Translations under genes and position numbers: made by a program
The notes under the pieces: generated by a model
Seen by the model: only the letters and a program-made list of their open reading frames with translations
Told to the model about the DNA's origin: nothing
Databases searched by the model: none
Assembly (NCBI GenBank): GCA_000004695.1
Contig: CM000151.3
Location: forward strand, 128,001-192,000
Direction: 5' to 3'
DNA: 64,000 nt
Source of the DNA: Dictyostelium discoideum
Lineage: Eukaryota
Shown here: in pieces, positions 12,113 through 13,745 of the stretch
How the letters are laid out: each line of letters begins with the position of its first letter
Numbering within the stretch: position 1 is the first letter of the stretch

Positions 12113-12423
12113 ATAATCAAAAACTCAAAAAATATGTTTGGAACGAAAAAGAAAAGATAAAAGATTTTCAAAGAAAAAAAAAATAAATAAATAAAATCTC
12201 AAGTTAAAATGTGTTATTTTAAACTATCTAAAAATCTGTTTCTTTTTTTCCTTTTCTTTTTTTCTCTTCTCTTCCTCTTTTTTTATTTTTATCATGCTTT
12301 AATCTTGAAAATATATAAAAAAATATAATATAATAAATAATGAATCTGTATATATTCCTATACTCTAAAATTGTTGGTAGATTTATATTTTTTAAAGAAA
12401 CAAATTTATTATAAAAAGATAAT

Positions 12424-12983
12424 TTAGAATCTTAATTTAGAGAAGAACCATTTTGATTTACCAGCTTTGTGTCTATTTTTTTAAAAAAAGGAGAAAATAG
12501 TTAGTAAAAGTTTTGGTGTTTTTTAGTTTAGTTTGGTTTTTTAAAATTTATCTATACATACTTGGCTTCAAAGATCTTTTTGACGGCTAAACGAGTGTGA
12601 GCACGTTTGGCGACTTGTGAGCTTTCAACAGTGACGGTGTTTTTGAGACCAGTGAAGGCAGATTCATCACGACCTTCAAAGTTGTAACGGGTTGGCATGA
12701 TGTGGTTGTAATTGACGACTTTAACAAATGAACGGATGGCAGTACGTTTGAGGATGGTCTTTCTGCTCATTGATCTAACGATTGAACGTGGGTATTTGTC
12801 GATACCAGCAACTAAACAGTGGCCGTATGGTCTTGATTTGCTTGCGGTGGCATCATCGAAGGTCTTGATGACAACAGCCTTACGACCGGCGTATTTACCG
12901 TTTAAGAGGATTACTAATCTACCTGGTTTGATGCTAAAAAAATAATATTTATATAATTTAAGGGTAAGTCCAAATTTGTTCAT
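12424..12983 (-). CDS. rpl27: 60S ribosomal protein L27 (L27e). Exons on the minus strand are 12562..12983 and 12424..12472, with the intron at 12473..12561. The 5' end is uncertain.
   Basis: IKPGRLVILLNGKYAGRKAVVIKTFDDATASKSRPYGHCLVAGIDKYPRSIVRSMS...VKVVNYNHIMPTRYNF matches the L27e family. Splicing the terminal exon (GTATGT...AAAAATAG) yields ...KAGKSKWFFSKLRF*, the conserved L27 C-terminus. The N-terminus is anomalous (see finding). Confidence 0.8.
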
Positions 12984-13655
12984 AATAACCCATACTATCA
13001 TGTGTTTCTATTAATCTATTATCAAACATCCTCATCCTCACATAATCCCAACATTCACATCACATATAATTATTATCCAAAAAACATATCATAGATTGAC
13101 AATGATGATTGATTATCTATTGTTGAATATTTTGATTAACTATTATTGAATATAGATTGATGAGGATTGATAAAGATTGATATAGATTGAGAAAGATAGA
13201 GAGAGAGAGAAATATAAAAAAAAAAAGATAGAGGTAATAATAACAATCACATACAACTTGGATGACATGGTTGGTGTATAGAAGCTACTAAACGAAAAAC
13301 GCGAAATTTTTTTTTTTTTTTCATGCAGTTTTTTTTTTTTTTTTTTTAACGATTTCAAAAATTTTTTATTTTTTTTTTTTTATTTTTTTTTTTTTTTATG
13401 AGTGCGGAAAACCGTTATCTTATATTAATAATTTTTTGTATAAGTCAATTTCCATATTTTTTTTTTTTTTTTTTATTAATTATTTATTTATTTATTTTTT
13501 CTGATCTATTTATTTATTAGTTAAAAAATTATTATTATTATTATTATTTTTTTTAATAATAGTATTATTGTTGTTTATTTTTTATTTTTTTGAGAACTTT
13601 TTTTTTTAAAAGTGATTCACAATGAAAATTTAATCACACACAAAACTTTTTTTTT

Positions 13656-13689
<34 letters not shown>

Positions 13690-13745
13690 CTTCATTTTAA
13701 ATAAAGACAACCCAAAAACCAATTTATTAATGAAGGACCACTACA

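What the first reader, a model, noticed from the sequence alone, without database searches (positions are those of the whole stretch)
12940..13001. rpl27 N-terminus has a 13-codon in-frame AT-rich insert and no GT donor
The conserved L27 start is M.KF.KPG. Here MNKF and IKPGR are separated by 39 nt (ggacttacccttaaattatataaatattatttttttagc). This stretch looks like an intron: it is AT-rich and ends TTTTTTTAG. However it has no GT on the coding strand and is a multiple of 3. Read through, it encodes GLTLKLYKYYFFS. The opposite strand carries a perfect GTAAGT. It could be a non-canonical or very short intron, a real insertion, or an error.
Basis: seen in the sequence. Interest (0 to 1): 0.55.

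Follow-up and report, generated by a model that had tools for sequence, protein, structure and literature searches.

The report
Ordinary first intron of rpl27
The supposed 13-codon insert is the last 38 bases of a normal 321-base GT-AG intron plus the first base of exon 2; the real start codon lies in a 14-base exon further upstream, and the gene is the already annotated Dictyostelium ribosomal protein eL27.

Summary
On the minus strand, ATGAACAAATTT (12983..12972) is followed by 39 nt (12971..12933) and then ATC AAA CCA GGT. There is no GT on that strand, and GTAAGT lies opposite at + 12964-12969.

The true exon 1 is ATGTCATCCAAGTT (13268..13255). It is followed by a consensus donor GTATGT, a 321-nt intron (13254..12934, 24% GC) and the acceptor TTTTTTTAG. 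Splicing gives MSSKF|IKPGR and a 144-aa protein that exactly matches RL27_DICDI / EAL71779.1. The read-through protein is absent from about 15 billion sequences.

Nine related Dictyostelium sequences keep exon 1, the donor and the acceptor. The distance from the intronic ATG to exon 2 varies (51, 49, 41, 40, 39, 36 nt). Read-through is frame-shifted or stopped in six, and one lacks the ATG. D. purpureum, T. lacteum and A. subglobosum have a GT-AG intron at the same TT|C position. No other eL27 has residues between K-F and [ILM]-K.

It is probably the branch site.

Verdict: an ordinary, already annotated intron. Interest is low.

The parts
13255..13268 (-). Exon 1 (coding part) of rpl27/eL27: ATGTCATCCAAGTT. 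It encodes M-S-S-K and the first two bases of the Phe5 codon.
   Evidence: Splicing it to 12933 gives a 144-aa protein identical to RL27_DICDI / EAL71779.1. It is invariant in 9 related Dictyostelium sequences. Of 6 in-frame ATG+GT combinations, it is the only one that rebuilds the family N-terminus.
12934..13254 (-). Intron 1: 321 nt, phase 2, GTATGT...TTTTTTTAG, 24% GC.
   Evidence: The intron is 172-333 nt in relatives, with the same donor and acceptor. The same TT|C position is used in D. purpureum, T. lacteum and A. subglobosum.
13249..13254 (-). 5' splice site GTATGT.
   Evidence: GTATGTGATTGTT is invariant across relatives.
13147..13201 (-). Five tandem units of about 10 nt inside intron 1 (CTCTATCTTT CTCAATCTAT ATCAATCTTT ATCAATCCTC ATCAATCTAT). 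Function unknown.
   Evidence: One search shows hits in a 10-nt register. Similar ATCAATCTTTATCAA copies occur in all relatives and in the D. purpureum intron.
12972..12983 (-). Not coding.
   Evidence: The ATG is absent in D. dimigraforme. In six other relatives it is out of frame with exon 2 or followed by a stop. The read-through protein is not in the protein collection.
12933..12971 (-). It is the last 38 nt of intron 1 plus the first base (C) of exon 2.
   Evidence: GC is 20.5% against 42.5% for the CDS. It uses TAT x3, CTT x2 and GGA, none of which appears in the real CDS.
12964..12973 (-). Invariant intronic core TTGGACTTAC. ACTTAC (12969..12964) is the candidate branch site with branch A at 12965.
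   Evidence: It is invariant in the window and all 9 related sequences, while the flanks diverge and the spacing to the AG varies from 19 to 31 nt. It differs by one base from ACTAAC. Intron 2 has ACTAAC 28 nt from its AG. Assignment as the branch site is an inference.
12934..12942 (-). 3' splice site: a run of seven T followed by AG (the G is at 12934).
   Evidence: TTTAG is kept in all relatives.
12562..12933 (-). Exon 2 (372 nt): the last base of the Phe5 codon, then IKPGRLVILLNGKYAGRK...IFEA and the first two bases of Lys129.
   Evidence: Pfam KOW and Ribosomal_L27e match.
12473..12561 (-). Intron 2: 89 nt, GTATGT...TACTAAC...ATAG.
12424..12472 (-). Exon 3 (49 nt including the TAA stop): ...HKAGKSKWFFSKLRF*.
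   Evidence: The C-terminus aligns with solved eL27 chains.

Best explanation
The window carries the Dictyostelium discoideum-type gene for cytosolic large-subunit ribosomal protein eL27 (rpl27) on the minus strand. It has three exons.

Translation starts at ATG 13268..13266. Exon 1 contributes only 14 coding bases (ATGTCATCCAAGTT). A canonical U2-type GT-AG intron of 321 nt (13254..12934) is then removed, joining TT to C at 12933 to make Phe5, followed by IKPGR.

The 39th base is the first base of exon 2. The apparent absence of a GT donor came from looking only downstream of the wrong ATG.

The conserved ACTTAC inside the 'insert' (complement GTAAGT) most likely serves as the branch site, 31 nt upstream of the AG. 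The T-run before the AG is the polypyrimidine tract.

Shown: the gene model, the identity with the annotated protein, conservation of the intron boundaries and position, and the non-coding evolution of the 'insert'. Inferred: actual splicing in vivo (no cDNA could be read here) and the branch-site assignment.
For: 1. The spliced model gives a 144-aa protein, MSSKFIKPGR...KWFFSKLRF. It is an exact match to RL27_DICDI / EAL71779.1 'S60 ribosomal protein L27 [D. discoideum AX4]'. The 156-aa read-through model is not in the collection of about 15 billion sequences.
2. Family membership: Ribosomal_L27e scores 95.2 bits (cut-off 24) and KOW 23.9 bits (cut-off 22.3). In the three printed alignments to solved eL27 chains, K-F-[ILM]-K aligns without a gap from residue 3.
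3. In a 15-sequence alignment, K-F and [ILM]-K are adjacent in every plant, fungal, animal, algal and dictyostelid eL27. Extra residues appear only in the read-through model and in one automated D. dimigraforme model, and in both they sit exactly at the intron site.
4. Six annotated assemblies encode the identical 144-aa product from gene spans of 674-843 nt. Exon 1 plus GTATGTGATTGTT and the acceptor are invariant, while intron 1 ranges from 172 to 333 nt.
5. The distance from the intronic ATGAAC to exon 2 is 51, 51, 49, 49, 41, 40, 39 and 36 nt across the window and seven relatives. Read-through is frame-shifted or stopped in L002-L006. In a strain 98% identical to the window, a 2-nt deletion shifts the frame (L010-L013). 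D. dimigraforme lacks the ATG altogether.
6. The intron position and phase (TT|C of the Phe codon) are the same in D. purpureum (MSKF|IKPGR, GTAAGT..AG), T. lacteum (MTGSSAKF|IKPGR, GTATTT..TACTAAC..AG) and A. subglobosum (MQKF|IKQGR, GTATGT..AG).
7. Composition: the 39 nt are 20.5% GC, against 42.5% for the CDS and 24% for intron 1. The real CDS uses TAC 5: TAT 0 and no CTT or GGA. The 'insert' uses TAT x3, CTT x2 and GGA.
8. Of 6 stop-free in-frame ATG+GT combinations upstream, only ATG 13268 with donor 13254 gives M-S-S-K-F-I-K-P-G and a consensus donor.
9. A 321-nt, 76% AT intron is within the D. discoideum range: 17,300 introns, 89% AT, median 103, mean 143, SD 158 nt (PMC2483917).
Against: - No cDNA, EST or RNA-seq junction could be read with these tools, so splicing is inferred from the annotation, comparative data and family constraints. 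The Logan contigs that cover the gene are unspliced.
- At 321 nt the intron is longer than the species median. Its AT content (76%) is below the species figure of 89%.
- ACTTAC does not fit the WCTRAY branch-site consensus (T at the R position). Only about 33% of D. discoideum introns fit that consensus in any case.
- The M-x-K-F look-alike is improbable under a random model (about 0.1-0.3%), and ATGAACAAATTT is conserved in eight of the nine related sequences, with substitutions or a 4-nt deletion in two of them. Its presence is therefore not fully explained.
Confidence: 0.97

Rival explanations
1. Real insertion or alternative isoform. In this strain a transcript starting inside intron 1 (or an intron-retaining mRNA) is translated from ATG 12983. 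The product is an eL27 with 13 extra hydrophobic residues between K-F and I-K-P-G.
For: The ORF from ATG 12983 (and from 13001) is open and in frame with exon 2 in the window and in L001. ATGAAC is kept in eight of the nine related sequences.
Against: - The frame is broken or stopped in L002-L006 and in the 98%-identical L010 strain, and the ATG is absent in L014.
- The protein is not in the collection.
- No eL27 has residues at this site.
- Codon usage and GC content are intron-like.
- An intron-retaining mRNA would be read from ATG 13268 and would stop inside the intron, as seen by reading the sequence.
Confidence: 0.01
2. Non-canonical or ultra-short intron. The 39 nt (or a similar stretch) are removed as a separate intron with a non-GT donor (GG...AG), leaving MNKF-IKPGR.
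For: The stretch is AT-rich and ends in TTTTTTTAG. MNKF resembles the family's M-x-K-F start.
Against: - A consensus GTATGT donor preceded by a conserved start codon exists 321 nt upstream of the same AG. It gives the exact annotated protein.
- No GT or AT-AC-type signal lies after ATGAACAAATTT in any genome.
- The 5' splice site does not match the U12 type (GTATCCTT, consensus from general knowledge), and U12 splicing is reported missing in Dictyostelium (PMC2846911).
- The ATG is not conserved in D. dimigraforme.
- A 39-nt intron would place the invariant ACTTAC 3-8 nt from its own 5' end.
Confidence: 0.005
3. Sequencing or assembly error that inserted AT-rich bases into the 5' end of the coding region.
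For: None beyond the oddity itself.
Against: The same architecture, with the TTGGACTTAC block and the T-rich acceptor, is present in nine related sequences: six annotated assemblies, D. dimigraforme and four SRA-derived contigs counted as one strain.
Confidence: 0.003
4. The conserved block ATGAACAAATTTGGACTTAC is more than a branch site. It may pair with the end of exon 1 (UCCAAGUU with AAUUUGGA) as a 'zipper stem' or autoregulatory structure, or it may be a relic of an older first exon. This would not change the gene model.
For: - The core TTGGACTTAC is invariant while the flanks diverge.
- The 8-bp helix is in the MFE structure in L005, L014 and L006. In the window, forcing it costs only 1.1 kcal/mol.
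- L006 has the exact complement, AACTTGGA.
Against: - Pair probability is about 0.01 in the window, L010, L001, L002 and L004.
- In the duplex-versus-shuffle test, 25% of shuffles do as well in the window. The test is nominally significant only in L014 (0.004) and L006 (0.04).
- No comparable complementarity exists in D. purpureum, A. subglobosum or T. lacteum.
- Exon 1 never varies, so there can be no two-sided covariation.
- Rfam has no match.
Confidence: 0.06

Closest known systems
Dictyostelium discoideum rpl27 (UniProt RL27_DICDI; GenBank EAL71779.1), large ribosomal subunit protein eL27
   Same: The three-exon model in the window translates to exactly this 144-aa sequence. It has the KOW and Ribosomal_L27e domains.
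   Different: Nothing at the protein level. The tools did not name the window's source, so strain identity is inferred from the exact protein match only.
Canonical U2-type GT-AG spliceosomal introns of dictyostelids (short, AT-rich, T-rich 3' region)
   Same: GTATGT donor, T-run plus AG acceptor, a branch-like motif 19-31 nt upstream, and AT-richness. The statistics fall within the published species range (PMC2483917).
   Different: It is longer than the median (321 against 103 nt) and less AT-rich than the species figure (76% against 89%). It carries a decamer repeat array and a conserved 3' block.
Start-proximal first introns in ribosomal protein genes (a very short first coding exon, as in many yeast RP genes). 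This comparison rests on general knowledge.
   Same: The first exon carries only 14 coding bases (4 codons plus 2 bases of the fifth). The first intron is the long one and the second intron is short.
   Different: No evidence here for the regulatory roles shown for some yeast RP introns. The zipper-stem test was not significant.
Gene-model errors at micro-exons: a missed short first exon, or a cryptic AG or ATG chosen inside the intron
   Same: Automated models in sister assemblies fail at the same place. P0001 reads MSSKF-IWTYIFNNFS-IKPGR, P0123 reads MTLSIFINPHQ..., P0124 reads MFDNRLIETHDS-RLVILL, and P0004 and P0006 have truncated N-termini.

Membership tests
eL27 (Ribosomal_L27e, PF01777, with N-terminal KOW) | Ribosomal_L27e domain above the Pfam gathering score | tested here: met
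   95.2 bits against a cut-off of 24, residues 56-144.
eL27 (Ribosomal_L27e, PF01777, with N-terminal KOW) | N-terminal KOW motif | tested here: met
   23.9 bits against a cut-off of 22.3, residues 8-32.
eL27 (Ribosomal_L27e, PF01777, with N-terminal KOW) | Contiguous N-terminus M-x(1-n)-K-[FI]-[ILM]-K-x-G with no insertion | tested here: met
   Met by the spliced model MSSKFIKPGR. Not met by the read-through model, which has a 13-residue gap-forming insertion.
eL27 (Ribosomal_L27e, PF01777, with N-terminal KOW) | C-terminal G-K-x-[KR]-W-F-F-x-K-L-R-F | tested here: met
   AGKSKWFFSKLRF, obtained after removing intron 2.
Canonical U2-type GT-AG intron | GT at the 5' end within a GTAAGT/GTATGT-like consensus | tested here: met
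   GTATGT at 13254..13249, invariant in 9 relatives.
Canonical U2-type GT-AG intron | AG at the 3' end preceded by a pyrimidine-rich tract | tested here: met
   TTTTTTTAG at 12942..12934.
Canonical U2-type GT-AG intron | Branch-site motif (yUnAy / WCTRAY) about 15-50 nt upstream of the AG | tested here: inconclusive
   ACTTAC fits yUnAy but not WCTRAY. It is invariant 19-31 nt from the AG in all relatives. The branch nucleotide has not been mapped.
Canonical U2-type GT-AG intron | Removal restores the conserved reading frame, and the position is shared by orthologues | tested here: met
   Exact RL27_DICDI after removal. The same TT|C position is used in D. purpureum, T. lacteum and A. subglobosum.
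Canonical U2-type GT-AG intron | Exon-exon junction observed in mature mRNA | not testable with these tools
   No cDNA or RNA-seq data were reachable. The Logan contigs covering the gene are unspliced.
U12-type (minor) intron | 5' splice site [AG]TATCCTT and branch site TCCTTRAY close to the 3' end (consensus from general knowledge) | tested here: not met
   The 5' end is GTATGTGA. CCCTTAAAT in the window is not kept in relatives. U12 splicing is reported missing in Dictyostelium (PMC2846911).
Lineage-specific in-frame insertion in a ribosomal protein | Length kept as a multiple of 3 and stop-free in close relatives, with exon-like codon usage | tested here: not met
   The ATG-to-exon-2 distances are 51, 51, 49, 49, 41, 40, 39 and 36 nt. 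Four are not multiples of 3, three relatives (L004-L006) have stop codons, and L014 has no ATG. GC and codon usage are intron-like.

The most novel reading that the evidence does not exclude
The invariant intronic block around TTGGACTTAC is kept in all nine related sequences while its flanks and its spacing to the AG drift. The ATGAACAAATTT in front of it is kept, with small changes, in eight of them. The block could be a cis-regulatory RNA element rather than only a branch site. For example, it could pair with the exon 1 / 5' splice-site region to tune or autoregulate rpl27 splicing, as in yeast RP-gene introns. That would also explain the K-F look-alike, because the AAGTT of the Lys-Phe codons in exon 1 is nearly self-complementary.
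Probability: 0.06. Interest if true: 0.3.

Novelty: already known. Interest (0 to 1): 0.05.

Why it matters
It matters mainly as a caution. In AT-rich genomes with very short first exons, an intronic ATG can mimic the family N-terminus and suggest a 'non-canonical intron' or an 'insertion'. Several automated gene models in sister Dictyostelium assemblies make related errors at this same intron. There is no new biology in the primary finding. The gene structure matches the annotated eL27 gene, and its first-intron position is conserved in the four dictyostelid genera examined.

Tried and rejected
1. Pfam cannot tell the two N-terminal models apart. Both score the same, because the L27e model starts at residue 56 and KOW at residue 8. 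I used the family alignment and the exact-sequence look-up instead.
2. Rfam scan of 12300-13700 at E<=1 on both strands found no match, so there is no known intron-hosted snoRNA or other RNA.
3. Zipper stem between the end of exon 1 and AAUUUGGA:
   - It is in the MFE structure in 3 of 9 genomes, with pair probability about 0.01 in the window.
   - In the duplex shuffle test, 25% of shuffles do as well in the window, and distant species show nothing.
   - Rejected as unsupported and kept only as a low-probability lead.
4. U12-type intron: rejected on the 5' splice-site sequence, the non-conservation of CCTTAA, and the literature.
5. Search for transcript evidence:
   - The exact 144-aa protein was found only in genome assemblies.
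   - The Logan contigs are unspliced genomic-type sequence.
   - A literature search for 'rpl27' with Dictyostelium gave only an rpl27a mention.
6. Enrichment of the ATCAATCTTTATCAA motif across the window was not significant (32 hits against 26.8 expected). Only the local tandem array stands out.
7. Antisense gene using the + strand GTAAGT as a donor: none of the six annotated assemblies with the 144-aa model nor L014 lists an overlapping gene on the opposite strand. Not pursued.

Full report
**Setting.** The window is about 20% GC throughout, which fits a dictyostelid nuclear genome. The finding concerns a gene on the minus strand.

**Observation.**
- ATGAACAAATTT (MNKF) lies at 12983..12972.
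- The 39 nt GGACTTACCCTTAAATTATATAAATATTATTTTTTTAGC lie at 12971..12933 and translate to GLTLKLYKYYFFS.
- ATCAAACCAGGTAGA (IKPGR) follows from 12932.
- No GT lies on the coding strand between that ATG and the AG.
- GTAAGT is on the + strand at 12964-12969.

**What is really there.** Reading further upstream on the minus strand shows ATGTCATCCAAGTT|GTATGTGATTG at 13268..13244. Joining TT (13256, 13255) to the C at 12933 makes TTC (Phe), and the protein starts MSSKF-IKPGR. A second intron has the form GTATGT...TACTAAC...ATAG (12561..12473, 89 nt). With it removed, the CDS is 14 + 372 + 49 nt and encodes 144 residues ending KSKWFFSKLRF.

This sequence exactly matches UniProt RL27_DICDI and GenBank EAL71779.1, 'S60 ribosomal protein L27 [Dictyostelium discoideum AX4]'. 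The 156-aa read-through protein is absent from a collection of about 15 billion sequences. The protein carries the Ribosomal_L27e domain (95.2 bits) and a KOW motif. It matches 44 distinct solved eL27 sequences. In the three alignments printed, it aligns from residue 3 with K-F-[ILM]-K contiguous.

I enumerated every stop-free, in-frame ATG+GT pair upstream of the acceptor and found six. Only ATG 13268 with donor 13254 has a consensus donor and rebuilds the family N-terminus.

**Comparative evidence that the 'insert' is intron.**

*Close relatives.* Six annotated Dictyostelium assemblies encode the identical 144-aa product from gene spans of 674-843 nt. Aligning intron 1 shows that exon 1 plus GTATGTGATTGTT and the TTTAG acceptor are invariant, while the interior is full of indels. 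Intron length ranges from 172 to 319 nt there, 333 nt in four SRA-derived contigs, and 239 nt in D. dimigraforme.

*Reading frame.* The distance from the intronic ATGAAC to the Ile6 codon is as follows.

| Sequence | Distance (nt) |
|---|---|
| Window | 51 |
| L001 | 51 |
| L002 | 40 |
| L003 | 41 |
| L004 | 49 |
| L005 | 39 |
| L006 | 36 |

Read-through is frame-shifted in L002-L004 and hits a stop in L004-L006. In the L010-L013 contigs, which are 98% identical to the window over 1.4 kb, a 2-nt TA deletion makes the 'insert' 37 nt and shifts the frame. D. dimigraforme has no ATG there at all. Indels that ignore the reading frame, beside an unchanged protein, are the signature of non-coding sequence.

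*Distant species.* The intron sits at the same place and phase in all three:
- D. purpureum: ATGAGCAAGTT|GTAAGT...TTAG|CATCAAACCAGGT
- T. lacteum: ...GCAAAATT|GTATTT...TACTAAC...TTTAG|CATTAAACCA
- A. subglobosum: ATGCAAAAGTT|GTATGT...CACAG|CATTAAACAA

*Family alignment.* In a 15-sequence eL27 alignment spanning plants, fungi, animals and algae, nothing lies between K-F and [ILM]-K. The exceptions are the read-through model and one automated D. dimigraforme model (P0001), which used a cryptic AG inside the same intron.

**Intrinsic evidence.** The 39 nt are 20.5% GC. Intron 1 is 24% GC and the CDS is 42.5% GC. The real CDS uses TAC 5: TAT 0 and never CTT or GGA, while the 'insert' uses TAT x3, CTT x2 and GGA.

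A 321-nt intron is long for D. discoideum but within about 1.1 SD of the mean. Published figures are 17,300 introns, 89% AT, median 103, mean 143 and SD 158 nt (PMC2483917).

**The GTAAGT on the opposite strand.** Its complement, ACTTAC (12969..12964), is part of the core TTGGACTTAC. That core is invariant in the window and all nine related sequences, while the spacing to the AG varies from 19 to 31 nt.
- ACTTAC differs by one base from ACTAAC. Intron 2 of the same gene has ACTAAC 28 nt from its AG, and in the L010 strain intron 2 carries ACTTAC at that place.
- The commonest D. discoideum branch-like hexamer is ACTAAT, and only about a third of introns match WCTRAY.
- I therefore read ACTTAC as the probable branch site, with branch A at 12965. 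This is an inference, not a mapping.
- A branch site is complementary to U2's GUAGUA. This is general knowledge, and it is why its complement resembles a 5' splice site.

**The M-x-K-F look-alike.** An open in-frame ATG in such an intron is common (27% of shuffles). One that also reads M-x-K-F is rare (0.1-0.3%), although the pattern was selected after the fact.

I tested whether the block AAATTTGGA is kept because it pairs with the last 8 nt of exon 1 (UCCAAGUU). That would also account for the K-F look, since AARTT is nearly self-complementary.
- The helix is in the MFE structure in 3 of 9 genomes. In the window it costs only 1.1 kcal/mol to force, but its pair probability there is about 0.01.
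- A duplex-versus-shuffle test is not significant in the window (25% of shuffles do as well). It is nominally significant only in L014 and L006.
- The three distant species show nothing.
- Exon 1 never varies, so two-sided covariation is impossible.

This idea is not supported. It remains a low-probability lead.

**Other checks.**
- Rfam finds no known RNA in 12300-13700.
- A U12-type intron is excluded by the 5' splice site. U12 splicing is also reported missing in Dictyostelium (PMC2846911).

**Limits.** No cDNA or RNA-seq junction could be read. Splicing is inferred from the exact match to the curated protein, conservation of the boundaries and position, frame-breaking variation in the 'insert', and family constraints.

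**Verdict.** The '13-codon insert without a GT donor' comes from taking an intronic ATG as the start codon. What is there is the ordinary, already annotated first intron of rpl27. Its donor lies 321 nt upstream of the acceptor, after a 14-nt first coding exon. Interest is low (0.05) and the novelty class is 'already known'.

Noticed in passing
window 13147-13201 (minus strand), inside rpl27 intron 1: There are five tandem units of about 10 nt (CTCTATCTTT CTCAATCTAT ATCAATCTTT ATCAATCCTC ATCAATCTAT). ATCAATCTTTATCAA-like copies persist in every related genome and in the D. purpureum intron (CATCAATCTTTTATCAA), although the rest of the intron is hard to align. This could be an intronic enhancer or splicing element. 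The window-wide count is not enriched (32 hits against 26.8 expected).
   Followed up: partly
window 12964-12987 (minus strand); L001-L006, L010-L014: A conserved island, TTATGAACAAATTTGGACTTAC, lies near the 3' end of intron 1. The core TTGGACTTAC is invariant in the window and all 9 related sequences. It extends further than a branch site alone would need. A pairing test with exon 1 was not significant.
   Followed up: yes
proteins P0001, P0123, P0124, P0004, P0006 (sister-species annotations): Deposited automated gene models of eL27 in several dictyostelid assemblies have wrong N-termini. They show a cryptic AG, intronic ATGs or truncations, all caused by missing the 11-23-nt first coding exon.
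   Followed up: partly
window about 13747 onward (+ strand); L004, L006, L007, L009 upstream genes: The divergently transcribed neighbour of rpl27 is a Cpn60_TCP1-family gene (623-648 aa in relatives). The head-to-head arrangement is kept in D. purpureum and T. lacteum. The shared intergenic region of about 470 nt is dominated by long T/A runs.
   Followed up: no
L010-L013 intron 2, compared with window 12500-12506: In a strain 98% identical to the window, the TACTAAC of intron 2 is replaced by ACTTAC through a small deletion. This suggests ACTTAC is an acceptable branch-site variant in this lineage.
   Followed up: no
window 13001 (minus strand): A second intronic ATG, 18 nt upstream of the 'MNKF' ATG, is also open and in frame with exon 2 (MIVWVIMNKF...). 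Like the first, it lies inside intron 1.
   Followed up: yes
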